A stretch of 64,000 bases of DNA from Escherichia phage EAWsc9, in sequence record PQ341120.1, one strand, 5' to 3'. Positions 4,848 through 28,298 of this stretch are shown here, one piece after another (position 1 is the first letter of the stretch; every line of letters starts with the position of its first letter). The notes beneath the pieces are model-generated. The model did not search any database, was not told where the DNA came from, and saw nothing but the letters and a program-made list of their open reading frames with translations. The translations under genes were made by a program, and so were the position numbers.

Positions 4848-4908
4848 TTGGTTTCCTTTATAGTCGAGTGATTGACTTTTGTTTTATGACTTGATGCTAT
4901 TATACTAC

Positions 4909-4929
4909 AAAAGGGACCGAAGTCCCTTT
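4909..4929 (-). terminator. C(UUCG)G tetraloop hairpin followed by U-rich tract upstream of gene 43
   Basis: Minus strand aaagggacTTCGgtcccttt then ttgtagtataat; 8 bp stem. Confidence 0.5.
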
Positions 4930-4932
4930 GCT

Positions 4933-5160
4933 TTAAATTTCTATTGTACGTCGTTCGATGGTTGGATTACCCTTTTCATCTTTAGTTCTAACCATAGCCT
5001 GGAAGGCTCTCTGTCCAGGATGTAATAATTTATTGAGTTCCTTTTGAAATTCTATTTGAAGTTCTTCGGAAAGGTCAAAAATGGTTTGAGTTGGGGAAAG
5101 TCCATATATTTCTTTAAGGCGTTCACATGTTTCAATTTCATGCTTCATATCAATTACCAA
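4933..5160 (-). CDS. Hypothetical small protein between regA and 43
   Basis: 75 aa ORF; start may be the internal ATG at 5148 to avoid overlap with regA. Confidence 0.4.
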   Translation of the reverse strand: MVIDMKHEIETCERLKEIYGLSPTQTIFDLSEELQIEFQKELNKLLHPGQRAFQAMVRTKDEKGNPTIERRTIEI

Positions 5161-5518
5161 TTGTATATTTGGCTACAAGCTTCCAGTCGTCTTTTTGTTT
5201 AAAGGAGATAACACGGAAGTTGTTTGTTACTGCGAACAATTCATTACGCTCTTCTTCTTTGATAGTGATTAAGCCCCAGTCTTCGAGCAGTTGAGTGATG
5301 GAATCACGGCGCTGATAGTCTTCACCATCAATATCCACCTGGCGACCATCCATACGCAGCATTTCTTTGAAGTGAACAATATAATAACGGCCTTGCTTTT
5401 GGAGGATGTGACAGCTCTGGTAAAGTACACGGTCTTTATTATTTGCGATGCCCATACGGGTCAGAGTTTCTTTAACTTTCAGGAAGTCTTCAGGTTGCTT
5501 TAATGTAATTTCAATCAT
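5150..5518 (-). CDS. regA: RegA translational repressor
   Basis: 122 aa; MIEITLKQPEDFLKVKETLTRMGIANNKD... matches T4 RegA along full length. Confidence 0.93.
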   Translation of the reverse strand: MIEITLKQPEDFLKVKETLTRMGIANNKDRVLYQSCHILQKQGRYYIVHFKEMLRMDGRQVDIDGEDYQRRDSITQLLEDWGLITIKEEERNELFAVTNNFRVISFKQKDDWKLVAKYTIGN

Positions 5519-5519
5519 T

Positions 5520-6098
5520 TTACCATTCCAATATTTGTTTTTTAATTTCTTTTTGTTCTTTCACATTACTGGTAACGGTCTTTAAGAATTCATCCGTCAC
5601 CAGACCTTTTGTCTTTTTCAAAACATCTTTAAGACTACCTTTGGCTTTCAATGTTTCCATATACATCAAAGCATCATCTGCATTAATTGTATAATATTTC
5701 ATTAAAAGCTTTAACACAAGCTGGACGCTGACTACATCCGGCTCAGCCTTAGCCCATTTGCCATAACGCTTACCTTGCGGAACTGCATGCAGCAAATAAT
5801 TATAATGCTGTTGGTCTGTTAACCCGGAACCGATTAAGTTCATCACGTTCACCTGCATAATGCAATCGACATGTTGGCTCAATGCGTTTTCCAACCAGAA
5901 TTTATTGTAGTTTTCCGATTGAATCAGGTTCCGTGGTTTTTTACTAACGGTTATGTCATTAAGAATCGCGAACAATTCATTTTCTGCTTTCTCTTTGTAT
6001 GAATCGGACAATTCCTGAATTTTGTTAAAGTCGCGTGATTTCCACGCAACCTCATGTTCGTTTAATTGAACGTCATCATCAAAGAGACTTACAGCCAT
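5520..6098 (-). CDS. 62: Clamp loader small subunit gp62
   Basis: 192 aa ORF in the conserved regA-62-44-45 order; size matches T4 gp62. Confidence 0.85.
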   Translation of the reverse strand: MAVSLFDDDVQLNEHEVAWKSRDFNKIQELSDSYKEKAENELFAILNDITVSKKPRNLIQSENYNKFWLENALSQHVDCIMQVNVMNLIGSGLTDQQHYNYLLHAVPQGKRYGKWAKAEPDVVSVQLVLKLLMKYYTINADDALMYMETLKAKGSLKDVLKKTKGLVTDEFLKTVTSNVKEQKEIKKQILEW

Positions 6099-7048
6099 TT
6101 CATTTCCCCAGCCAGTTGAGCAAACAGATAAGTCAAGTGAACTTCGGTATTGGCTGCAATGCCATGGTACTGATTATTCTCACCCACAATCTCATACATA
6201 CGGATGATGCTTGCACCAGTCAGTTTGCCATACATTTCATCAGCCAGCTTTGCAATGAAGCTTGAATAATCATTTGCATGCTTAGGAGCCAGCCCACGGA
6301 GAACTTTAAAGTTACGGTCCTTAAGGGCATCAATCACATCATCAATTGGTGTGCGATTGTTTGTCACGATGCTCAGAATACCGGAATCGATAACACCTTT
6401 TGCAGAGTAACGGTCAAGCTCATTAATTGTCTTACGCAGGTCCGGGAAGTTATGCTTAACCAGAGCAGCAACAACTTTCAGGTCTTCGATTTCAACGCCT
6501 TCGTTTTTACATATCGCGACTGCACGATGAATCATCTCTTTCATCATAGTAGTCTGGTCAGCTGGAGTTGCTTCACCAAACTTAATTACGCGGCAACGAG
6601 ACTGCAACGGAGTGATGATACCATCGATATTGTTCGCGGTCATAATGATTGAACAGTTGCTCGAATAAGCTTCCATAAAGCTACGAAGGTGTCGTTGCGA
6701 TTCAGCCAGACCCGCACGGTCAAACTCATCGATAACGATTACCTTACGGCGTCCTTCGATTGATTTAGATGATGCAAAGCGAGTCAATTCATTACGCACA
6801 AAGTCAATTCGACAATCGGAGCCGTTAACAAACAGCATATCAGAATTCGTATCCGCACACATAGCTTTTGCAACTGTTGTCTTACCAGTACCAGGGGAAG
6901 AACTGACCAGAATCAAGTTAGGAATCAAACCTTTTTTAACAATCGCCTCTAATGTTTCTTTATCATGTGCCGGGAGAATACACTCTGATAATGTACCTGG
7001 GCGGTATTTTTGTTCCCACATGAATTCTTTGTCATTAACCGTTAACAT
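6089..7048 (-). CDS. 44: Clamp loader ATPase gp44 (AAA+)
   Basis: 319 aa; Walker A SSSPGTGKTT, Walker B VIVIDEFD; T4 gp44 is 319 aa. Confidence 0.95.
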   Translation of the reverse strand: MLTVNDKEFMWEQKYRPGTLSECILPAHDKETLEAIVKKGLIPNLILVSSSPGTGKTTVAKAMCADTNSDMLFVNGSDCRIDFVRNELTRFASSKSIEGRRKVIVIDEFDRAGLAESQRHLRSFMEAYSSNCSIIMTANNIDGIITPLQSRCRVIKFGEATPADQTTMMKEMIHRAVAICKNEGVEIEDLKVVAALVKHNFPDLRKTINELDRYSAKGVIDSGILSIVTNNRTPIDDVIDALKDRNFKVLRGLAPKHANDYSSFIAKLADEMYGKLTGASIIRMYEIVGENNQYHGIAANTEVHLTYLFAQLAGEMKWL

Positions 7049-7084
7049 ATATTTTCCTCATATTAGTTTCTACTTTGTACTCCA

Positions 7085-7100
7085 TGGGGCCGAAGCCCCA
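7085..7100 (-). promoter_or_regulatory. Intercistronic C(UUCG)G hairpin between 45 and 44
   Basis: Minus strand tggggcTTCGgcccca between stop of 45 and start of 44; no U-tract, so likely RNA stability/translation element. Confidence 0.45.
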
Positions 7101-7104
7101 TTTA

Positions 7105-7800
7105 TTAATCTTGGAATTCGTGGCTAGAGCCTTGTTCCATTGCAATCACATAGCTTGCTTGTGTGCCTTCAAACTTCGTAGCAAATTTATCATCTTTCGC
7201 CCAAAGCATAACACGGTAATCAGCCGGAATCATTTTCATGTTCAGTTTGTTAATGATAAATTTAAACGCTGCATCGCCTTCGTAATCGCCACACACCAGG
7301 GAATACAATGGACGCGCTAACTCTTTATCTTCGAGCTGATTATAACCATGGATAACAATCTTACCGTCTTTGTTGGTGATTGCAAAAGTATCCAGAGACA
7401 AACCACCAGCCACACGCAGAAGCTGTTGCAGGTCACTACCTTTCAGGTCGAAAATAACCTTAGCTACCGGGAAAGGAATCTTCTTAGCAGGGAACACGAT
7501 AGTGCTCGGGTCTGCAGCAGGCCAGTGAATCGTTGAACGTTGGTCTTTGATAATGATGTTTGATGCATCTTCAGCCAGAGATACTTCAGCTTGGTCAGTT
7601 ACCAGGCCCAGGATACTTAAGAAGCCGTTTAGGTCATAAATTGCAGCTTCAAAGTCAATTGTATCATTGATTTCGGCTTCGCCATATGACGCTCCAGTTA
7701 CGGAACGAGTCAGGATGGTATTACCTGGCTTAAGCATAATGCCAGAGTAAATGGAAGTGAAGTTTTTCAGAACTGCGATAGTGTCTTTAGAGAATTTCAT
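7105..7800 (-). CDS. 45: Sliding clamp gp45
   Basis: 231 aa; MKFSKDTIAVLKNF... colinear with T4 gp45. Confidence 0.95.
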   Translation of the reverse strand: MKFSKDTIAVLKNFTSIYSGIMLKPGNTILTRSVTGASYGEAEINDTIDFEAAIYDLNGFLSILGLVTDQAEVSLAEDASNIIIKDQRSTIHWPAADPSTIVFPAKKIPFPVAKVIFDLKGSDLQQLLRVAGGLSLDTFAITNKDGKIVIHGYNQLEDKELARPLYSLVCGDYEGDAAFKFIINKLNMKMIPADYRVMLWAKDDKFATKFEGTQASYVIAMEQGSSHEFQD

Positions 7801-7827
7801 TTAATTACCTTTTATTCAAATCAAAAA

Positions 7828-8235
7828 TTAAGCAACAACTGCCATTTGTTTGCGGATAGCTTCCGGAAGAGATTCAATATACTCTGGAAGTTGTGCAGCA
7901 ATAATAGAACCAGCTTGCACCAGATGGTCATCAGAGTTAACGCAATAATCATCTTCAAGACGTTCGGAACCGTCACGGTCGATAACCAGTTTAGCACCAG
8001 CAGCCAGTGAATCGTTATAGTGATTACGCATCAGTTCAATCCACTTATCAGATACATCAGTATCAATCACACCATACAGCATAAATTTAATTTCTTGCGG
8101 CAGAGACTGCAGACGGGTAGCAGATGCTTCATCACAGGCCAGAACCCAGGATTTACGAACACGGTTTTGGTTATGCGGGTTAGCGTCGGTGCGGATGGTT
8201 TTAACTTGGATATCTTTAGCAGTTACGTTGTTCAT
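7828..8235 (-). CDS. RpbA-like protein (by position between 45 and 46)
   Basis: ORF 7828..8259 (non-ATG start codon) trimmed to internal ATG at 8235; identity assigned only by synteny. Confidence 0.4.
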   Translation of the reverse strand: MNNVTAKDIQVKTIRTDANPHNQNRVRKSWVLACDEASATRLQSLPQEIKFMLYGVIDTDVSDKWIELMRNHYNDSLAAGAKLVIDRDGSERLEDDYCVNSDDHLVQAGSIIAAQLPEYIESLPEAIRKQMAVVA

Positions 8236-8259
8236 AATATTCTCTCTATTCATTATCAA

Positions 8260-8451
8260 TTAATCAAAGTATTCATATGCGAACCAGGCATTGTGTCTGT
8301 TCGCGATTATTTTAACATATTCTTCACCGAAAGCGTTTTGCAAGTCACGTTCAGTGACAAGGTGTTCATCTTTCGAAAAGGTATTAACTAACACATACCG
8401 TTTAATTTCAGGGACAGCCAATAAATGCTGCCCGGTTAAGAAGTCAGCCAT
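8260..8451 (-). CDS. Hypothetical small protein (45.2 position)
   Basis: 63 aa ORF, tight packing with flanking genes. Confidence 0.45.
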   Translation of the reverse strand: MADFLTGQHLLAVPEIKRYVLVNTFSKDEHLVTERDLQNAFGEEYVKIIANRHNAWFAYEYFD

Positions 8452-8486
8452 AATAGCCTCTATTATAACATCCTTGTTTTAAAACA

Positions 8487-10169
8487 TTATTCCATAACAG
8501 TGAATCGACCAACTTTTTTCATCTGGAGATGTTGTCCGTATGCTTCCGGGTCATGGTCTCGGTGACTGATGATAAAGATGTTGGTGTCTTCCAATTTGTT
8601 CAGGATGGTAGCAATTGCTTTAACACCCTCTACATCTGTGGCCGAGTCAAAAACTTCATCCAGAATCAATGTGTTAATATTAACACCAGATACTTTCGCA
8701 GCAATATCGCGCCATGTAAACAGCAATGCAATATCTATACGAGCTTTTTCGCCCTGGCTAAATGATGCATAACTAAAGTCTTCACGTCCACGAGATTTAA
8801 TCGTTTCGTTGAACTCTTCATCTAACGTAAAGCTATAATCAGCTTCCATAACTTTAAGATAAGCATTTATCTGCTTATTAAAGATAGGAATATATTTCTT
8901 AATAATCGCGCCCTTGATACCAGAATCTTTCAACATATCCGTTAGGATACCACGTTGATATTTTTCCATCACAAGGTCGGATTTTTGTTTGACTATTTTA
9001 TCAAGCTGGTCTTGAAGCATTTTAATGTCTGCTGCATGGTCAATAAATTCCGACTTAGCTTGCTCGATTAATGCTTTAACCTTTTTAGCTTTTTCGACAG
9101 TCTGGACTAAGGTTTGTTTCTTAGTTTGAATGTCTTGAGCTATTGTACGCTGGTTTTGTCTTGCCTTGGTATACGCATCAAATTGCTCTTGAACAGCATT
9201 CTGGCGAGCTTTATGCTTATCAGCTGATGCATTACATTCTTCAATCTTTGACTCAATCCTGGCGACAATAGGGTCTCCTGGATGTAACTGACTGGCACAA
9301 GTCTGACAACAACCGCCCTTCTCGTACAGACCAACAACCTTTCGGTAATCGTCAATCTTCGATTTAATCAGGAATGATTCCTGCTTTAACTTTGTGAGTT
9401 CGTGCTCGGGGTCTTCTCCCAAAATTATCTCGGTCAGTCTTGTTGTTGCTTCTTCGATAGTTGCCTTGATTCCACGTGCTTCTGTAGCAAGTTCATCATA
9501 CATCGTTTGCAGTCGCAACAGATTATCACCTGACAATTTTCTTTGACGGTCTTCGTTGTCCTGATAGATTTTAATCTGTTGAACGATACCATCATGCTGC
9601 ACATCCATTACCTGGATTTGGCTATTGACTTCGCGGATAAGAGATTTGTTCAGCTTATCCATATCGGCCAGTACAGAAACCTCTAAAAGGTCTTCGACAA
9701 GCTTTCTTCTGGCAGGAGTGGATAGGCCCATAAAAGGGGTATATCCAGCTGTGCCGAGTACGACAATTTGTTTGAAACTGGCGTATGACATTCCGATAAG
9801 CTGTTCAAATTCCGCTTGGAAGTCTTTACTGCTGGCAGATTCATCAAGACGTTTACCGCCACAAGAGATTTCAAAAACATTGGGTTTTTGCCCGCGTTTG
9901 ATATAGTATTCTTTTCCATCATATTCCATCCACAATTCAACGAGCATATCTTTTTTGTTGCTCGAGTTAATCAACTGGCCTTTCTTTACATCACGGAAAG
10001 GCTTACCGAACATAGCAAAGGTAACCGCTTCAAGGAACGTAGATTTACCCGCGCCATTCTTGCCGGTGACCAGAGTTTTCTGGACTTTATCCAGTTCAAC
10101 AGTAATCGGTTTAGCACCAACCGACATAATATTTTTATAGATAACTTTCTTAAGCTTAAACGTTTTCAT
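8487..10169 (-). CDS. 46: Recombination nuclease subunit gp46 (Rad50/SbcC-like ATPase)
   Basis: 560 aa (same as T4 gp46); Walker A GKNGAGKST, central coiled coil with CxxC hook, C-terminal signature/Walker B LILDEVFD. Confidence 0.95.
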   Translation of the reverse strand: MKTFKLKKVIYKNIMSVGAKPITVELDKVQKTLVTGKNGAGKSTFLEAVTFAMFGKPFRDVKKGQLINSSNKKDMLVELWMEYDGKEYYIKRGQKPNVFEISCGGKRLDESASSKDFQAEFEQLIGMSYASFKQIVVLGTAGYTPFMGLSTPARRKLVEDLLEVSVLADMDKLNKSLIREVNSQIQVMDVQHDGIVQQIKIYQDNEDRQRKLSGDNLLRLQTMYDELATEARGIKATIEEATTRLTEIILGEDPEHELTKLKQESFLIKSKIDDYRKVVGLYEKGGCCQTCASQLHPGDPIVARIESKIEECNASADKHKARQNAVQEQFDAYTKARQNQRTIAQDIQTKKQTLVQTVEKAKKVKALIEQAKSEFIDHAADIKMLQDQLDKIVKQKSDLVMEKYQRGILTDMLKDSGIKGAIIKKYIPIFNKQINAYLKVMEADYSFTLDEEFNETIKSRGREDFSYASFSQGEKARIDIALLFTWRDIAAKVSGVNINTLILDEVFDSATDVEGVKAIATILNKLEDTNIFIISHRDHDPEAYGQHLQMKKVGRFTVME

Positions 10170-10390
10170 GTATTGTTCTCACGAATTGTTTGTTCAGCAT
10201 ATTCTAGCATTTCTTCGGAAGAAGCAAACACGTCGTCAAGTTCCATGGCCCATGAAACACCTTCAGAATATTCAGAAGTGACATACATAGTTCCGGTATA
10301 CCAAGAACCATCCACGTCCCATTCTACATTACCGAACCAGCCATCGCCAATATGAAAATCATGTTTATACATTTTCATCATTATAAGCAT
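10166..10390 (-). CDS. Hypothetical acidic small protein (46.x position)
   Basis: 74 aa ORF rich in D/E/W/Y, overlaps gene 46 start by 4 nt. Confidence 0.5.
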   Translation of the reverse strand: MLIMMKMYKHDFHIGDGWFGNVEWDVDGSWYTGTMYVTSEYSEGVSWAMELDDVFASSEEMLEYAEQTIRENNT

Positions 10391-10628
10391 CCTTGATGCA
10401 TGATTCAGCCATATGAATTAATGTTTCTGGAGTATCATCTACCATTACATTAAAGCTAAATTCCACAGCCCAATCGGTGACTACATAGACTTTGATAAGT
10501 TGACCGGTTTCCCGGTCAGTGATAGCTTCAAACCAATACTTAATAGTATTCGGTTGATTATCGTCGTCAACAACATCACATTCGCGGATATGCTCAAGTC
10601 CCGCTTCATTAAAATCATAAAGTCTCAC
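10365..10628 (-). CDS. Hypothetical acidic small protein (46.x position)
   Basis: 87 aa ORF between 47 and 46. Confidence 0.5.
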   Translation of the reverse strand: MRLYDFNEAGLEHIRECDVVDDDNQPNTIKYWFEAITDRETGQLIKVYVVTDWAVEFSFNVMVDDTPETLIHMAESCIKDAYNDENV

Positions 10629-11644
10629 GGTTGCACCTCAAGATATAATTTGTTGGCCAATGCTTTAAGAGCTTTTGATTCTTTCTCATTGGTGTCAGGT
10701 AATGCATCAATATATTCTGCCATCATATCAGTTAAGCGTTTTATGTCTAACTCTTCTTCGGAGTCAGTCGTATCAACACTGTTATCAACCTTATTGACAA
10801 CACGCAATTCATGTACACGCTTTTCTAATTCAGATTCGAACTTGGTCAGGTCTTTATCGACTTTTTCTACAATAACACGGACTGATAAGTCTTTGAAGTC
10901 GTCGTAGTTAATAGTTTCGTTTGGATAAAAAATCTTCCGATGCCAGGTGGTTTCATTCGGAATAAATTTCATCTCTTCGGTTTCTGTATCAAATTCCCAG
11001 AATCCGCGCGGGTCATTCTCATCACCTGCTGTTAATGTCCATGGTGTCCCTATGTACTTAACGTTCGCAGCTTCCGAAATGGTATGGAAGTGCCCAGACC
11101 AAACTTGCTTGTACTTCTTAAGGAAATCGGGCTCAAGTCCGTGGGATTTCAATCCTTTATAGAAATAAAACCCGGTTAATTCCCAGTGACCGATGCAATA
11201 TTCGGCACCAGAAGTTTTGATGTGTTGATGAATGTCAGTCGCGTTCTCGTCACACATCCATGGAATCATATCAATCTGACAACCGTCAAAATCAACAGTC
11301 GTTGGCTTGTCGTAGATTTTAACATGGTCATACTTATTCAGGAGTTCAGTGATAGCATTAGGATGAATCTTATTCTTCAGATTCATGTCATGGTTCCCGA
11401 CTATCGTGTGCATAGTAATTCCTGCTTCACGAAGGAGTTCCATAATCTCGCGGCTGAATTCCATTGTCTTATGCGTTACGGCCTTACGGACGTCAAAAAT
11501 ATCACCATATTGAATCCAGACTTTAATTCCATTCGCTTTGGAATATGCAATCGCCTGTAAAATACCATCACGTTGAATGTTTTGAGCCCATGGGTCGTCA
11601 GCTTTGACACCTAAGTGCCAATCACCTAAATTTAAAATTTTCAT
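10625..11644 (-). CDS. 47: Recombination nuclease subunit gp47 (Mre11/SbcD-like phosphoesterase)
   Basis: Start set to internal ATG giving MKILNLGDWHLG... (339 aa, as T4 gp47); metallophosphatase motifs GDWH, GDIFD, GNHD. Confidence 0.93.
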   Translation of the reverse strand: MKILNLGDWHLGVKADDPWAQNIQRDGILQAIAYSKANGIKVWIQYGDIFDVRKAVTHKTMEFSREIMELLREAGITMHTIVGNHDMNLKNKIHPNAITELLNKYDHVKIYDKPTTVDFDGCQIDMIPWMCDENATDIHQHIKTSGAEYCIGHWELTGFYFYKGLKSHGLEPDFLKKYKQVWSGHFHTISEAANVKYIGTPWTLTAGDENDPRGFWEFDTETEEMKFIPNETTWHRKIFYPNETINYDDFKDLSVRVIVEKVDKDLTKFESELEKRVHELRVVNKVDNSVDTTDSEEELDIKRLTDMMAEYIDALPDTNEKESKALKALANKLYLEVQP

Positions 11645-23093: not shown

Positions 23094-23993
23094 TTATTTT
23101 AATGCTAAAATCGCCGCCTGCAATTTATTGCGTTGTTTTTCCATGTTCTTGATGCGATTCAGAACATCCTGGATACCCTTTTTCTCATCTTCAATCAGAC
23201 CGTTTAAGCGGTTGACTGATTCCTGGATAGCATCAGCATGATAGCTCTCAATAGGCTTCATTGGTGGGTTAAAGATTTCAAGAGAGCTGTTTGGCTGGAT
23301 TTTCCATTGATACATATTTTTAACTTCCAGTGGTGAAATTTTAGCCTGGTCGTAAGATTTAAACTGACCTGTAACTGCTGGGTTATATGCTGCAGTAGGG
23401 GTTTCCATTTCTGGTTCCTTTTTCTCTTGATAAGGAGCATAAGACAAAAGATATTCTTTAGTTAATTTAATATCAATGACTATAGTTTTAAGGAATTTTT
23501 CTGTTTGATGGATATAATTTGTATCTTCTTCAAACGTGTATGCTTCAACGGCATGACGCATATAAAACAGAGCAATACCCATAACCTCTTTAAAGGTATC
23601 ACAAAGAGCAACATCACCCTTAGTAGTTGGCTTGAACTTAATCTGCACGCCATCGTTCTTGATATTAATAATCAAGTTATCGGAGTTAAAATTATAGTTC
23701 TTGATGTTAACCGGAGCCTTGCGAATACGAAGCCCTGCAGCCAGGATTTCCTTAATGCTCTTACGAACTGTGGCACCAAACAAAAACGCAGGGCGGCGGC
23801 AGTAATCATTCAGAGAGTTAATTCTTACAATACGTTGTCCATACCCCTGGGTGGCAGAACCTGATTTGATTTTACCAAAGTTAACCAGAGAATTCATCGC
23901 GATAAGACGGGTTGCACGACCTTCACGCTGTTCAAATCGAGAATATTCTTTACGTGTTTTAATTTTCATATCATAATCCAAATAATTTTTCAT
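23094..23993 (-). CDS. Hypothetical protein with C-terminal coiled coil
   Basis: ORF 23094..24005 trimmed to internal ATG. Confidence 0.55.
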   Translation of the reverse strand: MKNYLDYDMKIKTRKEYSRFEQREGRATRLIAMNSLVNFGKIKSGSATQGYGQRIVRINSLNDYCRRPAFLFGATVRKSIKEILAAGLRIRKAPVNIKNYNFNSDNLIINIKNDGVQIKFKPTTKGDVALCDTFKEVMGIALFYMRHAVEAYTFEEDTNYIHQTEKFLKTIVIDIKLTKEYLLSYAPYQEKKEPEMETPTAAYNPAVTGQFKSYDQAKISPLEVKNMYQWKIQPNSSLEIFNPPMKPIESYHADAIQESVNRLNGLIEDEKKGIQDVLNRIKNMEKQRNKLQAAILALK

Positions 23994-24186
23994 AGAGTTT
24001 AGCAAAAGGCCAGGTCACACACATTATAACAGCGACTACCCAGAATATAGGCCAGCAAAATGTTGTGAACGCCGCATCATACTCGTCCCCACTTTCGTAG
24101 GGACTATCAAACTTGTGGAGCAACAGGGTAGTAATAAAACCTATCACAAGATAACCAAAAATAATACTGATAATCAAAATGGTCAT
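23971..24186 (-). CDS. Hypothetical small membrane protein
   Basis: ORF 23971..24207 trimmed to internal ATG with AAGGA upstream; two hydrophobic helices. Confidence 0.45.
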   Translation of the reverse strand: MTILIISIIFGYLVIGFITTLLLHKFDSPYESGDEYDAAFTTFCWPIFWVVAVIMCVTWPFAKLYEKLFGL

Positions 24187-24187
24187 A

Positions 24188-25033
24188 TTAATCCTTAAGC
24201 AATTCAATAACGTTCATCAGTTTCTGACGTTCGGCTTTCGCTGCATTGTTCAGTCCTGACAGACGGAAAATTTCATCATCTTGTTGCTGGATGGTGATGT
24301 TAAGCTCTTCAATCTGTTTAGTGAAAAGCTCAATTTGCTCTGAATATTTTTCATTGCTTCGCACTGGTACGGGTTCCATTTTAGGAGCTTGTTCTGAATG
24401 TTCTTCAGCCAGGTCTTTAATTTTATAAAGTTTAATACGTTGACCTACTCCAGTTTCAGCATCACCAAAACTAAGAACGCCGTGTTGTTCTAATTCAGAC
24501 AGGGCCAAGCGCAGATGGAACTTCCAGTTGTCATATTGACAACCACTAAAAGTTGAAATGGTATACTCATTTTCATTTCCGGGGTGGTTAACAATATTAA
24601 AGATAATCCAATCACCTGAACCGTTAGTCTTAAATGTCATTTGTTTATCAAGACCTTTTGCAAGACGAGCACCAAGGGCCAGTAGACGACGTTGATTAGT
24701 ATTAAGGTCTTTAACAACTTCGCCAAATGACATCGCCGGGATTAAACGACCATAAAGGTCGTAGCCTTTGTTATAATTTTTAAGAATAATTTTGGCATTA
24801 GCACGAGACAACATACCTGTTTTACGAAGAGTTTTCATGACTCGGTCTTCTAAGGTAAACGAACCTTTAGTCTTGTCAAAGATTTTAGTGAAGTCATCTT
24901 TAACAGTACAAACATTGAACTTGTCCCACATCATATATAGGACCTTTTCAACCACTTCTTTAGTGCTTGGAATACGACCGAATTTAACAACTTTTTTAAC
25001 TTCAGAACGAATTTCATTAATTGCTTGCGACAT
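24188..25033 (-). CDS. Hypothetical protein with C-terminal coiled coil
   Basis: 281 aa ORF. Confidence 0.55.
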   Translation of the reverse strand: MSQAINEIRSEVKKVVKFGRIPSTKEVVEKVLYMMWDKFNVCTVKDDFTKIFDKTKGSFTLEDRVMKTLRKTGMLSRANAKIILKNYNKGYDLYGRLIPAMSFGEVVKDLNTNQRRLLALGARLAKGLDKQMTFKTNGSGDWIIFNIVNHPGNENEYTISTFSGCQYDNWKFHLRLALSELEQHGVLSFGDAETGVGQRIKLYKIKDLAEEHSEQAPKMEPVPVRSNEKYSEQIELFTKQIEELNITIQQQDDEIFRLSGLNNAAKAERQKLMNVIELLKD

Positions 25034-25096
25034 AATAATTTCCTCAATAGATTAATCAAAGGTCAGAACCATTATACCATCCTTGGTATAAAGCGT

Positions 25097-25621
25097 TTAT
25101 GCGAGAACCGTCTTTAAACGCTCTTCAAACTTCTGAAGGAGTACCTGGCGCTCTGCTCTTTGTTTGGTATAGGTTTCAATACGCTCTGAAGTGAGATTGT
25201 ATTGTTCATTAACTGATTCCCTCATGAATTCAGGAATCTCTTTACATGCTTTGATTTCATTGAACTTATCAAGCACCGCTTGTTGTTCAGCAATCAGACC
25301 ATCATAATATTGGATATCTGATTTGATGTTTTGTACATCAGATTCAGTAGGCATATTTTTCTTCGCTCTTGTCGCCTGATACTCTGCATTAGTCTCTCTT
25401 GACCAGAACAAAGAGCGATTTTTGTTGGTGTTTTTATACACATCAACAATACCTACTGAATCAACAGTCACAATCCAGTTCCAGGCGTTTTTATAAGTTT
25501 GACCACCTGATACTGTAATCTCACCCGCACAAGCAACATCATTAAAGAACTTGCTTTGTGCTTCTGATTTAAAATTACCATTATTGTAATTAATCAGATT
25601 AAAGATTGATTTGGCTTCCAT
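25097..25621 (-). CDS. Hypothetical protein behind repeated promoter/leader cassette
   Basis: ORF 25097..25687 trimmed to internal ATG preceded by conserved leader ...cactggagaataaaATG. Confidence 0.5.
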   Translation of the reverse strand: MEAKSIFNLINYNNGNFKSEAQSKFFNDVACAGEITVSGGQTYKNAWNWIVTVDSVGIVDVYKNTNKNRSLFWSRETNAEYQATRAKKNMPTESDVQNIKSDIQYYDGLIAEQQAVLDKFNEIKACKEIPEFMRESVNEQYNLTSERIETYTKQRAERQVLLQKFEERLKTVLA

Positions 25622-25689
25622 TTTATTCTCCAGTATTTGGTAACTCAGTATGGGAACATTATACGCCCATCCCCATACCATGTACACAT

Positions 25690-25992
25690 TTAATTAAAAG
25701 TTCTTTCAGTATTTTCACCACTGAACCAGACGCTCTTAACGGCTTGCTGGGCGCGATGTAGCTGCTCTGCCATATAAACACCAAGGGCCTCAGCCTTACG
25801 TGTCCTGTGGGCTTCTGCGGCGACTATTTGCAACTTATCCATCATGATAAGAGCTTTACATTTCTCCTTCAGAGCATATCGCTTCTTCTCTTCTGGAGTT
25901 TTGACCATTCCTCTTAACTTGTGCATTTTCAACTTAAAATGGTCAGCAGATTTCAGACATGCCTCAATCATGTCAAGTTCATACTTTTTCAT
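25690..25992 (-). CDS. Hypothetical protein
   Basis: 100 aa ORF. Confidence 0.5.
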   Translation of the reverse strand: MKKYELDMIEACLKSADHFKLKMHKLRGMVKTPEEKKRYALKEKCKALIMMDKLQIVAAEAHRTRKAEALGVYMAEQLHRAQQAVKSVWFSGENTERTFN

Positions 25993-25998
25993 AATTCC

Positions 25999-26205
25999 TC
26001 ACTTGCGACGACGTTTTGGTAATGGTTTAGGGAAGAACATTGCTTTACCTGCAGGGGTCAAAGTCACACGCAAAGCATTACCAATACCAAGGGATGCTTT
26101 AACCAGACCTTTGGCTTTTAACTCACCAAATGCTTGACGTTGTTCAGGGTCACGAGTGTTAACCATCAGACCTTTTTCACCAGCAGCTTTGATTAATTCT
26201 AACAT
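25999..26205 (-). CDS. Hypothetical small basic protein
   Basis: 68 aa ORF preceded by conserved leader cassette. Confidence 0.5.
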   Translation of the reverse strand: MLELIKAAGEKGLMVNTRDPEQRQAFGELKAKGLVKASLGIGNALRVTLTPAGKAMFFPKPLPKRRRK

Positions 26206-26246
26206 TTTATTCTCCGTTTGTTTATTTGGTAACTCAGTATGAAATC

Positions 26247-26276
26247 ATTATGCATCATGACCATCTGGTTGTACAC
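26247..26276 (-). promoter_or_regulatory. Early promoter (GTGTAC-18-CATAAT) of repeated cassette family
   Basis: Same cassette recurs at 25622-25690, 45004-45086, 45555-45636, 46063-46140. Confidence 0.4.
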
Positions 26277-26322
26277 ATATACTAAATAAAAATACTTAAT
26301 AAAACCATAAAGGAGAAAGTTT

Positions 26323-27069
26323 ATGATTTTATCCGGAAGAACTGTTGATGAACTCAATGAAAAAGTCCAGGCTGCCTTGGCTAATAATTGGTATTTGTTT
26401 GGTTCTACTATGGTGTTGCCGAATACCCCTACAGATAGCAAAGAGCGTTTTTTCCAAACTATGTCCAGCTCGGAAACTCAGATACCGGGCCCGCCTGGGC
26501 CAAAAGGAGACCCGGGTGTACCAGGACCAAAAGGAGACCCAGGCGGGGATGGAAAGTCTTCTTATCAGATATGGCTTGACTTGGGAAATACAGGAACTGT
26601 TGATGATTTTTTAACTGATACAGCAGGAAAGAGGGAAAAATCCGAGGTGTTTTGGAGTGGTATAAACGTTCTATTAACTAATGGTACGACTTCAAACATA
26701 ATTAGTGTTTTAAAGGGGATTCCACCGACTGCAGGGACTCTATCTCCGTTTTTTAGAACCACTGATGATAAGTTGTGGCCATATAACCAAGACAGAAGCC
26801 TAATGTTTAAACTCAACCTTATTGGTAATTTTGCAGGAGCCTCGCAAGCTCGAAGTATAACATTAAATTTCGTTGGAACCAACGGAAACACTTATATACA
26901 GAATCGTCCGGAAAATGCTACAGATATTTTGTCTTTTACAACGTTCTTTAGCATTGATAAAGATGGGGCAATGGCAACCAATGGTACAGCTATAACTGTT
27001 ATGCCAAATGGCGGCAACTTTACAATAACCTCTGCATTGTTAGTAGCCGAACAAACAGTGACTTCATAA
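26323..27069 (+). CDS. Collagen-like repeat protein with fibre-type C-terminal domain
   Basis: 248 aa plus-strand ORF; AGGAG 6 nt upstream of ATG; eight G-X-Y triplets (GPPGPKGDPGVPGPKGDPGGDGKS) then S-x-Y-Q-I-W-L motif typical of phage fibre proteins. Confidence 0.7.
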   Translation: MILSGRTVDELNEKVQAALANNWYLFGSTMVLPNTPTDSKERFFQTMSSSETQIPGPPGPKGDPGVPGPKGDPGGDGKSSYQIWLDLGNTGTVDDFLTDTAGKREKSEVFWSGINVLLTNGTTSNIISVLKGIPPTAGTLSPFFRTTDDKLWPYNQDRSLMFKLNLIGNFAGASQARSITLNFVGTNGNTYIQNRPENATDILSFTTFFSIDKDGAMATNGTAITVMPNGGNFTITSALLVAEQTVTS

Positions 27070-27075
27070 ACAAAA

Positions 27076-27093
27076 AAGGGCCATCCGGCCCTT
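27076..27093 (-). terminator. Hairpin terminator (minus-strand sense) abutting collagen-like gene stop
   Basis: Perfect 7 bp stem aagggcc/ggccctt with 4 nt loop; A6 on plus = U6 after hairpin on minus. Confidence 0.5.
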
Positions 27094-27280
27094 AGATTGC
27101 ACTCCAAAAATTATGGAATCTTATAGTATTGATAGCCCAGTTAACAAACCCGCGAGTTTGTTTGGGAGTTGGTTTGCATATGTACTTATTGTTGATTCGT
27201 CTGCCAGTTTCCCGACAGACTGCTTCGAGATACCAGCGCCGACCTTTATTAGGTCTTCCGTATGATAAGAAGACCTTCAT
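27092..27280 (-). CDS. Hypothetical small basic Cys-containing protein
   Basis: ORF 27092..27334 trimmed to internal ATG to avoid 47 nt overlap. Confidence 0.3.
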   Translation of the reverse strand: MKVFLSYGRPNKGRRWYLEAVCRETGRRINNKYICKPTPKQTRGFVNWAINTIRFHNFWSAI

Positions 27281-27287
27281 TTCTTCA

Positions 27288-28298
27288 TTAACGATAATAG
27301 GAATTGTGGTTGTCAAGATATACCTCTTCAACAAACTTGTCCCAGAACTTCATGTCTACCTTATCAGGCATACCATTCTTAGCAGCCTGGATGGCCAGAA
27401 CTTCAACTAAATCGACAGTATCTTCAAGAAGTTCTTGAACTTCTTTAAATGGCAATTCACCAGCTTTAATCAGCTTAATGATAGAGGCTTCACGCAATGG
27501 GAATACCAAGTCACCCGTTTGGTAGATTTCCATCAATTGATACCCTGCACGATAAGCATGGCTCAGTGCTTTCCAATCAATACCTTCGTTAGCTTCTGCT
27601 TTACGAGCACGTTCACCATATTCGGCGTCGAGTTTATTCAGAGATTGCTTGAGCTCGATTAATGACAGAGTAGTTTGGTATTTACGACCGAGGACAGTAT
27701 AGAACGTTTGAGGACCTGTTTTCTCATGGTTATGAAATACCCATTCGCAGAACTCGTTTTCAGGGAGTCTGTGTTTGATATCTTCTACCTTAGTACGTCG
27801 TTGCTTAGCGGAACCATCTTCTTGATAGTCAACCCATTGTTCAGGAATCTGGTTAACAATTTCCAATACACCACGCAGTGCAGCCAATCGAGAACCTTTA
27901 ACACCATATTTGGAAGCTTGCTTACGGACGTACCCCAAATAGGCTTTCATGTTAGTTGTATAGAACCGTGAACGGTTGTCCTGAATAAACTTCCATACAT
28001 CTGGTAAATCGGATTTGACTATCAGGTCAGCCGGGGTGTGAATCATATCCAGAGCAACGGTTTCGCCATCAGCCGCCAGTTTAAAGAAATATTTCAGACT
28101 ATAAAGTTCATGGTCAACATCATCTTTTGTATTTTTGGTAGCCGTGTTATTCGTGTTCAGGTTGGTATGGTTCATCGCGGTTCCGAGCAGGATATCTCGC
28201 GGATGAGGAACAAAGATTTCTTTAAAATCGACATCAGATTCCGGGGTACTTGTTCCATAAAGATGGCTACCGAAGTAGCCTTTCATAATAGCTTTCAT
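27288..28298 (-). CDS. Putative Pol-beta-superfamily nucleotidyltransferase
   Basis: ORF 27288..28328 (non-ATG start codon) trimmed to ATG with GAGGA upstream; N-terminal motif GSHLYGTSTPESDVDF resembles the G[GS]-x9-13-DhD NTase signature. Confidence 0.45.
   Translation of the reverse strand: MKAIMKGYFGSHLYGTSTPESDVDFKEIFVPHPRDILLGTAMNHTNLNTNNTATKNTKDDVDHELYSLKYFFKLAADGETVALDMIHTPADLIVKSDLPDVWKFIQDNRSRFYTTNMKAYLGYVRKQASKYGVKGSRLAALRGVLEIVNQIPEQWVDYQEDGSAKQRRTKVEDIKHRLPENEFCEWVFHNHEKTGPQTFYTVLGRKYQTTLSLIELKQSLNKLDAEYGERARKAEANEGIDWKALSHAYRAGYQLMEIYQTGDLVFPLREASIIKLIKAGELPFKEVQELLEDTVDLVEVLAIQAAKNGMPDKVDMKFWDKFVEEVYLDNHNSYYR

What the first reader, a model, noticed from the sequence alone, without database searches (positions are those of the whole stretch)
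26323..27069. Opposite-strand collagen-like fibre gene embedded in the early nrdC-tk region
In a region where all neighbours are on the minus strand, a 248 aa plus-strand ORF has a strong RBS (AGGAG), a hairpin right after its stop, and a product with eight Gly-X-Y triplets followed by an S-x-Y-Q-I-W-L...G-T-x-x-D-F-L segment like that after collagen repeats in phage fibre proteins, then a beta-rich C-terminal domain. The overlapping minus-strand frames translate to low-complexity junk. T4 has no such gene here as far as I recall. It looks like an acquired moron encoding a trimeric fibre or decoration protein. I could not find a TATAAATA late promoter upstream, so its timing is unclear.
Basis: partly seen in the sequence, partly recalled or inferred. 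Interest (0 to 1): 0.7.

Follow-up and report, generated by a model that had tools for sequence, protein, structure and literature searches.

The report
Collagen-stalked knob fibre gene, probable head decoration
This is a real accessory gene of a T4-like phage that encodes a small three-part fibre (anchor, collagen stalk, knob); databases label it a "tail needle knob", but its anchor domain suggests it more likely decorates the phage head.

Summary
ORF 26323..27069 (+) is a real gene: AGGAG RBS, eight Gly-X-Y triplets, a hairpin after the stop, and dN/dS of about 0.1. The window is a Gaprivervirus, 99.5% identical to Yersinia phage vB_YenM_P8.

The protein has four modules:
- an N-terminal DUF1737 domain (residues 1-50);
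- a collagen stalk (56-79);
- a widespread post-collagen connector (79-97);
- an Sf6-type TNF-like knob (99-244; Pfam PF16532, E=2.6e-32), with the L-glutamate pocket residues conserved.

Stalk length varies among orthologues, from no triplets in RB43 to 22.

About 30 phages carry the full architecture: several Straboviridae genera and three Klebsiella siphoviruses. In T4-likes it is a lone opposite-strand cassette near nrdC.11. Orthologues in three lineages have an exact TATAAATA late promoter. This window has only ACTAAATA.

DUF1737 was recently shown, in a phi24B cryo-EM preprint, to bind capsid hexons. I therefore read this protein as a dispensable virion-surface fibre, probably on the head, and not as a tail needle. 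Location and function are inferred, not shown.

The modules are known and the gene is already in databases. The DUF1737 link and the re-interpretation appear to be new. Interest is moderate.

The parts
26281..26288 (+). Degenerate T4-type late-promoter-like element ACTAAATA (6/8 match to TATAAATA, TAAATA core intact), 35 nt before the ATG
   Evidence: It is the only ..TAAATA match on + in 24000-26330. Orthologues have exact TATAAATA at the equivalent place: AnYang and C6, fHe-Yen9-01, PEi20. RB43 has CATAAATA. The alignment with AnYang and VR7 shows the region is homologous. Function in this phage is untested.
26311..26315 (+). Ribosome-binding site AGGAG, 7-nt spacer to the ATG
   Evidence: Read directly from the sequence. 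It is conserved in AnYang and C6.
26323..27069 (+). Coding sequence, 248 aa plus stop: DUF1737 - collagen - connector - Sf6-type knob
   Evidence: ORF listed. dN/dS is 0.10-0.13 and third-position substitutions are in excess. It is annotated as a CDS in RZ and P8.
26323..26472 (+). N-terminal DUF1737 (PF08410) domain, residues 1-50: one helix packed on a small antiparallel sheet; proposed virion or capsid anchor
   Evidence: DUF1737 is the top Pfam hit for all 8 family N-termini. The window alone scores 17.6 bits; orthologues score 26.1 and 27.3 bits against the 24-bit cutoff. The family profile retrieves canonical DUF1737 proteins from 1.84e9 sequences. hhalign against phi24B gp84 gives 72% probability, E=3.4e-5. 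The AF2 model has E2-5, H8-20, E30-32, E42-48 and matches viral DUF1737 models at TMq 0.7-0.83.
26488..26559 (+). Collagen-like stalk, residues 56-79, eight Gly-X-Y triplets (about 7 nm if triple-helical)
   Evidence: Direct reading of the sequence, plus the regex count. The Pfam Collagen score is 17.6 bits, below cutoff because the tract is short. Length varies among orthologues from 0 to 22 consecutive triplets.
26557..26613 (+). Post-collagen connector SSYQIWLDLGNTGTVDDFL, residues 79-97, predicted as two short helices
   Evidence: The AF2 model has H80-86 and H93-100. The same motif follows GXY runs in about 45 unrelated collagen-like proteins and is repeated up to 6 times in some.
26617..27054 (+). 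Sf6-type knob, residues 99-244: TNF/C1q-like jelly roll, trimeric in the solved relatives
   Evidence: PF16532 E=2.6e-32, 112.3 bits against cutoff 27. PDB 3RWN E=1.3e-31 and 4K6B E=3.9e-31. Foldseek of the AF2 model against 3RWN gives E=1.2e-14, TMt 0.79. The glutamate-pocket residues E108, K163, S210 and D212 are conserved.
27076..27093 (.). GC-rich hairpin (7-bp stem, 4-nt loop) between the convergent genes, flanked by an A-run and a T-run; a bidirectional terminator
   Evidence: It folds at -12.7 kcal/mol on + and -14.3 kcal/mol on -. One search calls it as a terminator on the minus strand. Analogous hairpins follow the stop codon in RB43, AnYang, fHe-Yen9-01, C6 and PEi20.

Best explanation
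The ORF is a genuine, dispensable structural-type gene of a Gaprivervirus (T4-like) phage. Its product most likely assembles as a homotrimeric mini-fibre with four parts.

- Three N-terminal DUF1737 domains act as the anchor to the virion, most probably to major-capsid-protein hexamers, as shown for the DUF1737 domain of phi24B gp84.
- An eight-triplet collagen triple helix forms a stalk of about 7 nm.
- A short helical connector that commonly follows collagen repeats links the stalk to the head.
- A distal Sf6-type TNF-like knob trimer keeps the inter-subunit L-glutamate pocket and serves as the exposed ligand-binding head.

The gene is a self-contained cassette (late-type promoter position, RBS, ORF, bidirectional terminator) set against the flow of early transcription next to nrdC.11. 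It is probably transcribed late. The fibre would work as an auxiliary adhesin or decoration, comparable in logic to Hoc, and not as a tail needle.

Shown here: the gene is real, its domain composition, its polymorphic distribution, and late promoters in orthologues.

Inferred: trimer formation, late timing in this particular phage, attachment to the virion, the capsid as the site, and the adhesin role.
For: Gene reality: dN/dS is 0.10-0.13 and third-position substitutions dominate. The overlapping minus-strand ORFs have no family match.

Knob: PF16532 at 112 bits. PDB 3RWN and 4K6B at E about 1e-31. Fold match at TMt 0.79. The four glutamate-contact residues named in PMC3741392 map to invariant or near-invariant E108, K163, S210 and D212.

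Anchor: DUF1737 is the top Pfam hit for 8 of 8 family N-termini, and two exceed the gathering score. The reciprocal profile search returns canonical DUF1737 proteins scoring 27-65 bits against PF08410. hhalign against phi24B gp84 gives 72% probability, E=3.4e-5. Fold hits to viral DUF1737 proteins reach TMq 0.7-0.83. The phi24B cryo-EM preprint shows DUF1737 hexamers plugged into hexon pores.

Modularity: the same anchor carries other cargoes in P0058, P0059 and P0064. P0064's cargo hits a 'head and packaging' PHROG. Stalk length varies from 0 to 22 triplets.

Late expression: exact TATAAATA lies 29-33 nt before the ATG in three independent lineages. By composition this is about 0.004 per locus by chance. 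In Klebsiella siphovirus Kpn BU9 the gene starts at the stop codon of the large terminase.

Virion association of the family: the knob-only homologue gave 16 spectra in CsCl-purified Vi01-like virions (PMC10892097).

Dispensability: 8 of 651 records with related flanks hold the whole region. VR7 has other DNA in the slot. Frameshifted or deleted copies exist: P0052, P0054, P0055, P0056.
Against: - No transcript, proteomic or imaging data exist for this protein or for any T4-like orthologue.
- The window's own DUF1737 score (17.6 bits) is below Pfam's cutoff.
- Identity to the one characterised DUF1737 domain is 16%, and its Tyr42 capsid 'tooth' aligns to Ser39 here.
- The capsid-binding role of DUF1737 rests on a single preprint about an unrelated podovirus with a different capsid.
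- The close relative RZ also encodes a Hoc-like protein, and Hoc occupies hexamer centres in T4, so the site could be taken.
- The promoter in this lineage has two mismatches (ACTAAATA).
- In P22 chimeras the Sf6-type knob did not determine host range, and glutamate-pocket mutants had no phenotype, so an adhesin role is not established even for the archetype.
Confidence: 0.5

Rival explanations
1. It is a tail component, as the database label 'tail needle knob' implies: a tip, central-spike cap or short side fibre on the baseplate that contacts the cell envelope during infection.
For: The knob is homologous to the distal tip of P22-like tail needles. PHROG 1030 is filed under 'tail'. TNF-like knobs also cap the central spike of Staphylococcus phage 812 (weak fold hit 9eul). 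The knob-only homologue is in Vi01-like virions at an unknown location.
Against: Only residues 88-247 match the needle family. Nothing matches the needle's N-terminal plug or its coiled-coil shaft. The N-terminus is DUF1737 instead. The gene lies in the early nrdC region, far from the baseplate and tail genes, and is absent from most close relatives that have the same tail. Siphoviruses with the same architecture place it next to the terminase and portal genes.
Confidence: 0.2
2. It is not a virion protein. It would be a soluble or cell-associated factor released at lysis, or acting inside the infected cell, for example binding a host surface structure, a small molecule (L-glutamate) or debris to prevent futile adsorption.
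For: The gene sits among early, non-structural genes. No canonical late promoter is present in this window. DUF1737 is mostly found as stand-alone small proteins or fused to enzymes. The knob's ligand pocket is conserved.
Against: Orthologues have canonical late promoters. No early or middle promoter-like site lies upstream on the + strand. An anchor-stalk-head layout with variable stalk length is typical of displayed fibres (PRD1 P5, C1q, BclA). The family's knob-only member was found in purified virions.
Confidence: 0.12
3. In this particular lineage the gene is a poorly expressed or decaying remnant. The ORF is intact, but the promoter has been damaged and the gene is on its way to loss.
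For: ACTAAATA replaces TATAAATA here and in RZ. The left recombination breakpoint against VR7 lies at the promoter. Truncated, frameshifted or internally deleted copies occur elsewhere.
Against: All eight close records (seven phages) keep an intact ORF at 98-99.6% protein identity. The window-versus-RZ comparison gives dN/dS 0.13, with 8 of 10 differences at third positions. The RBS and terminator are intact. Tolerance of T4 late promoters to changes at the first two positions was not evaluated here.
Confidence: 0.13

Closest known systems
Sf6 gp9 / HS1 tail-needle knob (PDB 3RWN, 4K6B; Pfam PF16532)
   Same: The C-terminal 146 residues are homologous (E about 1e-31; 36% identity in the Foldseek structural alignment). 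The TNF-like jelly roll and the four L-glutamate-contact residues are conserved.
   Different: There is no needle N-terminal plug domain and no coiled-coil shaft. The phosphate-binding S-R-N triad is reduced to R195 only. The host phage is a myovirus with a gp5-type spike. The gene is accessory and lies outside the tail module.
phi24B gp84 (NanS-p-type esterase): DUF1737-anchored capsid-decorating protein (bioRxiv 10.64898/2026.04.10.717836)
   Same: It has an N-terminal DUF1737 domain followed by a flexible linker and an exchangeable cargo. The same helix plus three-strand fold is predicted.
   Different: Identity is 16%. The Tyr42 anchor residue is not conserved and the loop is 3 residues longer. 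The cargo is a trimeric collagen-knob rather than a monomeric esterase. The capsid is T4-type and prolate and carries Hoc. Binding was not demonstrated here.
PRD1 spike protein P5
   Same: The design logic is the same: an N-terminal virion anchor, a collagen-like Gly-X-Y shaft and a C-terminal TNF-like trimeric knob. There is a fold hit to 1YQ8 and 1YQ5 (E about 4e-4).
   Different: There is no detectable sequence homology (6-7% identity). P5 sits on the vertex penton of a tailless membrane-containing phage.
T4 Hoc (highly immunogenic outer capsid protein)
   Same: It is a dispensable, late, capsid-displayed protein that projects an adhesive domain away from hexamers and is present or absent among relatives. 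The functional analogy is proposed from established knowledge of Hoc.
   Different: Hoc is a monomeric string of Ig-like domains with a C-terminal capsid-binding domain, so it is unrelated in sequence and fold. The close relative RZ has a Hoc-like gene as well.
C1q / BclA / ExsFA-type collagen-stalk, TNF-like-head proteins
   Same: A collagen triple helix is nucleated by a C-terminal TNF/C1q-like trimer. There are fold hits to ExsFA, C1q and BC2L-C lectin (E 4e-4 to 5e-3).
   Different: The relation is only at fold level. The stalk here is very short (8 triplets), and the anchor differs.
Knob-only proteins of Ackermannviridae (Vi01 and CBA120 orf226 type)
   Same: The knob is homologous (about 41% identity). 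They are also indel-polymorphic (PMC5048108) and were detected in purified virions.
   Different: They lack the DUF1737 domain, the collagen stalk and the connector. They must attach, if at all, in another way.

Membership tests
Pfam PF16532 Phage_tail_NK (Sf6-type knob) | HMM score above the curated gathering score (27 bits) | tested here: met
   112.3 bits, E=2.6e-32, residues 99-244 on profile positions 30-175 of 175.
Pfam PF16532 Phage_tail_NK (Sf6-type knob) | TNF-like jelly-roll fold | tested here: met
   AF2 model (pLDDT 66.6 overall, 70-91 in most of the knob) against 3RWN: E=1.2e-14, TMt 0.79.
Pfam PF16532 Phage_tail_NK (Sf6-type knob) | Conserved L-glutamate-contact residues (Sf6 E146, K200, S248, D250) | tested here: met
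   They map to E108, K163, S210 and D212, which are invariant or at least 90% conserved in the 14-sequence family alignment.
Pfam PF16532 Phage_tail_NK (Sf6-type knob) | Homotrimeric assembly | not testable with these tools
   Only monomer prediction was available. The trimer is inferred from the crystal structures of homologues.
P22-like tail needle (P22 gp26 / Sf6 gp9) | N-terminal tail-plug domain and long trimeric coiled-coil shaft | tested here: not met
   phrog_1030 and the PDB chains match residues 88-247 only. Residues 1-50 are DUF1737 and 56-79 are collagen.
P22-like tail needle (P22 gp26 / Sf6 gp9) | Encoded in the tail module of a P22-like podovirus | tested here: not met
   The window is a Gaprivervirus (Straboviridae), and the gene lies between nrdC.10-like and nrdC.11 early genes.
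Pfam PF08410 DUF1737 | This protein's own HMM score above the gathering score (24 bits) | tested here: not met
   13.8 bits in the full-length scan and 17.6 bits (E=0.0036) for the isolated domain.
Pfam PF08410 DUF1737 | Family-level homology: orthologues above cutoff, and reciprocal retrieval of canonical members | tested here: met
   P0004's N-terminus (79% identical to the window's) scores 26.1 bits and P0009's scores 27.3 bits. All 8 of 8 have DUF1737 as top hit. The family profile finds P0065, P0068, P0066, P0069, P0067 and P0070, which score 27-65 bits on PF08410. hhalign against gp84 gives 72% probability.
Pfam PF08410 DUF1737 | Fold: one helix plus three antiparallel strands | tested here: met
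   AF2 model with pLDDT 73 has E2-5, H8-20, E30-32, E42-48. BFVD hits to proteins named DUF1737 reach TMq 0.70-0.83. No solved DUF1737 structure was in the PDB copy.
DUF1737 capsid-decorating proteins (phi24B gp84 type) | Binding to the central pore of major-capsid-protein hexamers | not testable with these tools
   Needs cryo-EM, pull-down or complex modelling. Shown only for phi24B.
DUF1737 capsid-decorating proteins (phi24B gp84 type) | Tyr42 'tooth' in the strand 2-3 loop | tested here: not met
   hhalign places gp84 Tyr42 opposite Ser39. The loop is 3 residues longer. Some orthologues (RB43 type, fHe-Yen9-01) do have a Tyr in this loop.
Collagen triple-helix repeat (PF01391) | Uninterrupted Gly-X-Y periodicity, Pro-rich | tested here: met
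   Eight consecutive triplets, with 7 Pro among the 16 X/Y positions. The Pfam score of 17.6 bits is below the 27.2 cutoff only because the tract is short.
T4-type late gene | TATAAATA about 30 nt upstream of the start codon | tested here: inconclusive
   The window has ACTAAATA, a 6/8 match. Orthologues in AnYang and C6, fHe-Yen9-01 and PEi20 have the exact motif, and RB43 has CATAAATA.
Moron-like autonomous cassette | Own promoter and terminator, with presence/absence polymorphism among close relatives | tested here: met
   Homology to VR7 breaks at about 26276 and resumes at about 27090, enclosing the promoter element, ORF and hairpin. Eight of 651 related records hold the region. Promoter activity itself is untested.

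The most novel reading that the evidence does not exclude
T4-like phages, and some siphoviruses, may possess a second, Hoc-independent class of head decoration. In this reading, trimeric DUF1737-anchored fibres dock on gp23 hexamers, for example two trimers supplying six DUF1737 domains per hexamer. Their collagen stalk length would be tuned to project a glutamate-binding TNF-like knob beyond the Hoc layer: no stalk in RB43, whose hoc is fragmented, and an 8-22 triplet stalk in phages with Hoc. The knob would give the capsid a lectin-like or small-molecule-dependent adhesin. The widespread database label 'tail needle knob' would then be wrong for this whole group.
Probability: 0.3. Interest if true: 0.65.

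Novelty: new variant of a known kind. Interest (0 to 1): 0.45.

Why it matters
Three things follow if the head-decoration reading is right.

1. It would correct a propagating annotation ("tail needle knob") in dozens of T4-like and siphovirus genomes.
2. It would extend the newly described DUF1737 capsid anchor from one Stx podovirus to the best-studied phage family, where genetics, hoc/soc display technology and high-resolution capsid structures make it directly testable.
3. It would give a natural, modular anchor-stalk-head scaffold for capsid display.

It also bears on the long-open question of what the Sf6-type knob and its buried L-glutamate are for. Here the same knob is used away from any DNA-delivery needle. 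That argues for a binding role rather than an ejection-control role.

If the reading is wrong, the finding is still an ordinary accessory fibre gene that is now correctly described.

Tried and rejected
- Profile of the N-terminal domain against PDB sequences: only coiled-coil noise such as GCN4, E at least 0.26.
- Foldseek of the N-terminal model against PDB: nothing below E=0.7, so the phi24B capsid model is not in the copy.
- Word-indexed homologue search with the N-terminal profile: returned only truncated copies of the same gene. The exhaustive search was needed.
- PHROGs on the isolated N-terminus: no family. NCBIfam on the whole protein: none.
- Literature searches for virion proteomics or function of the T4-like orthologues (fHe-Yen9-01, vB_YenM_P8, RB43, CfP1, PEi20, Carvaje): nothing usable. 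The P8 paper does not discuss the gene.
- Early or middle promoter for the + strand: the sigma-70 scan finds none upstream of the ORF, and I saw no MotA-box-like TGCTT by eye.
- Minus-strand coding: rejected on substitution pattern and absence of family hits.
- A second DUF1737 gene in the window: none among 705 six-frame segments.
- Literal tail-needle reading: rejected because the defining N-terminal and shaft parts are absent.
- Hoc as a discriminator: inconclusive. RZ has a Hoc-like gene, RB43 has only fragments, and VR7 has two.
Full report
OBSERVATION.

The window carries a 248-aa ATG-initiated ORF at 26323..27069 on the + strand, and every neighbouring gene is on the minus strand. AGGAG lies at 26311-26315, seven bases before the ATG. 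Residues 56-79 are eight uninterrupted Gly-X-Y triplets. They are followed at once by SSYQIWLDLGNTGTVDDFL.

A 7-bp GC-rich hairpin sits at 27076-27093, six bases after the stop. It folds at -12.7 kcal/mol on the + strand (z = -3.6) and -14.3 kcal/mol on the - strand. Only the minus-strand version is followed by a proper U-run, and the consensus scan calls it as a terminator on that strand only. It is best seen as a terminator shared by two convergent transcription units.

No TATAAATA lies upstream on the + strand. The only TAAATA-core match in the preceding 2.3 kb is ACTAAATA at 26281-26288.

Three minus-strand ORFs of 71-108 aa overlap the gene but match no PHROG family. Against orthologues, substitutions concentrate on third positions of the + frame (0.55-0.61, against 0.19-0.41 at positions 1 and 2). 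dN/dS is 0.10-0.13 where it is not saturated.

WHERE THE WINDOW COMES FROM.

The 3.5 kb around the ORF is 99.5% identical to Yersinia phage vB_YenM_P8. It is 94-98% identical to a handful of E. coli phages classified as Gaprivervirus, Straboviridae. Of 651 phage records with related flanks, only 8 hold the whole stretch.

In the type Gaprivervirus VR7 the slot is occupied by a different hairpin and one small minus-strand ORF. Homology between the window and VR7 breaks at about 26276 and resumes at about 27090. The replaced unit is therefore exactly promoter element + RBS + ORF + hairpin.

WHAT THE PROTEIN IS.

[quoted passage not shown] It matches the crystallised Sf6 and HS1 knobs at E about 1e-31. 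The AF2 model (mean pLDDT 66.6, higher in the knob) superposes on 3RWN at E=1.2e-14 and TMt 0.79. The next hits are all TNF/C1q-like trimers: BC2L-C lectin, PRD1 P5, ExsFA and C1q.

Leavitt et al. (PMC3741392) name four residues in intimate contact with the buried L-glutamate: Sf6 E146, K200, S248 and D250. Using the HMMER alignment, they correspond to E108, K163, S210 and D212. These are invariant or nearly so in the family alignment. Of the phosphate-binding S-R-N triad only the Arg (R195) is kept.

[quoted passage not shown] RefSeq and Pharokka-style annotation already calls this gene "tail needle knob". The knob homology is therefore not new.

The connector after the collagen tract is a recurrent module. 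The consensus SAYQIWLDLGNTGxEQDF[IL] follows GXY runs in about 45 unrelated collagen-like proteins recovered, sometimes in up to six copies. AF2 predicts it as two short helices.

The N-terminal 50 residues are the new element. The full-length scan gave only a weak DUF1737 (PF08410) hit of 13.8 bits. I tested it in five ways.

1. All eight family N-termini scanned alone have DUF1737 as their best Pfam family. Two exceed the 24-bit gathering score: 26.1 bits for P0004, which is 79% identical to the window, and 27.3 bits for P0009. Both are aligned over profile positions 6-50 of 53. The window's own domain reaches 17.6 bits.
2. A profile of the family N-termini searched against 1.84 billion representative proteins gave 21 hits at E up to 1e-3. 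Besides orthologues, they include small proteins that score 27-65 bits on PF08410.
3. I took the N-terminus of phi24B gp84 from HM208303. It reproduces the Tyr42, Gly54 and SISSP landmarks of the preprint and scores 71 bits on PF08410. hhalign of the window-family profile against it gives 72% probability, E=3.4e-5, over 43 columns, at 16% identity.
4. The AF2 model of residues 1-56 (pLDDT 73) is a helix packed on a small antiparallel sheet, which matches the preprint's description of the fold.
5. Against predicted viral structures, that model hits several proteins named DUF1737 at TMq 0.70-0.83.

The PDB copy contains no DUF1737 structure. I conclude that the domain is a divergent DUF1737 member. 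The window's own score alone would not establish this.

WHY DUF1737 MATTERS.

A 2026 preprint on the Stx phage phi24B (bioRxiv 10.64898/2026.04.10.717836) reports that the DUF1737 domain of the gp84 esterase is the capsid-binding module. Six copies plug the central pore of hexons at the face centres, with Tyr42 acting as a "tooth", and the enzymatic cargo hangs from a linker. No other paper in the library assigns a function to DUF1737.

The profile search here also shows the same anchor fused to other cargoes. P0058 has three connector/collagen modules plus a knob. P0059 has tandem DUF1737 domains plus unrelated repeats. P0064 has a cargo that matches a PHROG in the "head and packaging" category. 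Anchor plus exchangeable cargo is what one expects of decoration proteins.

FAMILY ANATOMY AND DISTRIBUTION.

Forty-one phage records (about 30 phages) encode the full architecture:
- a subset of Gaprivervirus;
- Dhakavirus (C6, MN04, AnYang);
- Kanagawavirus (PEi20, PEi26);
- Tegunavirus (fHe-Yen9-01);
- the RB43 group (Pseudotevenvirus and relatives);
- three 57-60 kb Klebsiella siphoviruses.

No Tequatrovirus is among them.

The N-terminal domain, the connector and the knob are conserved. The collagen tract is absent in the RB43 group and the siphoviruses. It has 8-9 triplets in Gaprivervirus and Dhakavirus, and up to 22 consecutive triplets in metagenomic relatives.

In every T4-like genome inspected the gene is a lone opposite-strand gene among early-strand genes. 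It lies between nrdC.10 and nrdC.11 or close to nrdC.11. In the siphovirus Kpn BU9 it starts at the stop codon of the large terminase gene.

Frameshifted, truncated or internally deleted copies exist (P0052, P0054, P0055, P0056). Together with the patchy distribution, this shows that the gene is dispensable.

EXPRESSION SIGNALS.

Exact TATAAATA lies 29-33 nt upstream of the start codon in AnYang and C6, in fHe-Yen9-01 and in PEi20. These are three independent lineages. RB43 has CATAAATA. From the window's base composition, an exact match is expected about 7e-5 per position, or about 0.004 per 60-nt upstream window.

The window and RZ carry ACTAAATA in the homologous position. No sigma-70-like site precedes the ORF on the + strand. 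Every orthologue has a GC-rich hairpin, flanked by A- and T-runs, directly after the stop.

The family is therefore very probably late-transcribed. For this phage that is an inference, weakened by the two promoter mismatches.

MECHANISM PROPOSED.

The solved knobs are trimers, and collagen tracts are triple-helical, so the protein should form a homotrimer nucleated by the knob. Three DUF1737 domains would hang on nine-residue linkers at one end, with a stalk of about 7 nm.

I propose that the DUF1737 domains dock on the virion, most likely on gp23 hexamers by analogy with phi24B. The knob would be displayed as an accessory binding head, similar in logic to Hoc and in architecture to PRD1 P5.

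Weak support for virion association of the family comes from 16 spectra for the knob-only homologue in CsCl-purified Vi01-like virions (PMC10892097).

These points count against the proposal or remain unresolved:
- The only functional precedent for DUF1737 is one preprint on a different capsid.
- The Tyr "tooth" aligns to Ser39 here.
- RZ also encodes a Hoc-like protein that may occupy hexamer centres.
- Even in P22 chimeras the knob had no host-range role, and glutamate-pocket mutants had no phenotype.

My estimates are about 0.9 for a trimeric collagen-knob fibre, about 0.7 for virion association and about 0.45 for a capsid location.

RIVALS.

A tail location (0.2) is what the database label implies. 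However, the parts that define a needle, the N-terminal plug and the coiled-coil shaft, are absent, and the gene is unlinked to tail genes. A non-virion factor (0.12) and a poorly expressed, decaying copy in this lineage (0.13) cannot be excluded without expression data. Against decay, eight close records (seven phages) keep the ORF intact under purifying selection.

NOVELTY AND VERDICT.

All modules are known. The gene is present and auto-annotated in public genomes, and the knob homology in T4-like phages was reported in 2013.

Three points appear to be unreported in the searched literature:
- recognition of the DUF1737 anchor;
- the variable collagen stalk;
- the conserved late-promoter/terminator cassette at the nrdC.11 locus.

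From these follows the reading as a head-decoration fibre rather than a tail needle. I rate it a new variant of a known kind, of moderate interest (0.45).

Noticed in passing
window 26196-26275 (minus strand): The 117-bp gap between the ORF and the next minus-strand gene (start 26205) holds three sigma-70-like promoter matches on the minus strand: TGTACA-17-CATAAT, TTACCA-17-TAAAAT and TAAACA-17-TAGAAT with TG. The gap therefore looks like a divergent promoter region that restarts early-strand transcription after the terminator at 27076-27093.
   Followed up: partly
window 27092-27334 (minus strand): The small convergent neighbour is a real gene (phrog_8921, E=3e-39). Its start is ambiguous: the ORF listing gives TTG at 27334 (80 aa), while vB_YenM_P8 annotates a 62-aa product. 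AnYang lacks this gene altogether.
   Followed up: partly
L014 (VR7, NC_014792.1) 3503-11175: VR7 lacks the knob gene. In its head cluster next to hoc it has a 427-aa collagen protein (VR7ORF196w, about 100 GXY triplets, no DUF1737), a second Hoc-like gene and a duplicated gp24. RZ, which has the knob gene, has none of these. They may be alternative head-decoration sets.
   Followed up: partly
L010 (RB43, NC_007023.1) 23353-23856: RB43's hoc survives only as two fragments of 61 and 47 aa, and its DUF1737-knob protein has no collagen stalk. Stalk length might track the presence of a Hoc layer, but this rests on two data points only.
   Followed up: no
L012 (phage C6) 1390-2320: C6's copy is mosaic. 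Its upstream flank, including the exact TATAAATA, is identical to AnYang's. Its 3' end, hairpin and downstream flank are of the window type. This indicates recombination within or at the edges of the cassette.
   Followed up: partly
L003 (vB_YenM_P8, PP693301.1): The GenBank annotation of the closest relative carries evidently mis-transferred product names. Many nrdC.x ORFs are called 'thioredoxin', a 68-aa ORF is called 'tail tube protein', and mobD-region ORFs are called 'molybdopterin-guanine dinucleotide biosynthesis protein'.
   Followed up: no
window 47257, 50558, 54303 (minus strand) and 63591 (plus strand): Four of the six exact TATAAATA motifs in the window sit 11-33 nt upstream of an ATG, three of them with a visible Shine-Dalgarno. 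These are likely genuine late promoters inside this mostly early region.
   Followed up: no
proteins P0052, P0054, P0055, P0056 (metagenomic contigs): These are frameshifted, truncated or internally deleted copies of the same gene. P0055 joins the first 30 residues directly to the last 15. This points to recurrent inactivation.
   Followed up: partly
L007 (Klebsiella phage Kpn BU9) 3223-8826: In this siphovirus the large terminase and portal genes are separated by the knob gene and a block of eight small ORFs, seven of them on the opposite strand. This is an unusual interruption of a head module.
   Followed up: no
proteins P0059 and P0064: The same type of DUF1737 N-terminus is fused to other cargoes. 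P0059 (520 aa) has two tandem DUF1737 domains, 'IQWR' repeats and an unrelated C-terminal domain. P0064 (151 aa) has a cargo matching phrog_9732 and phrog_10405 'virion structural protein'.
   Followed up: partly
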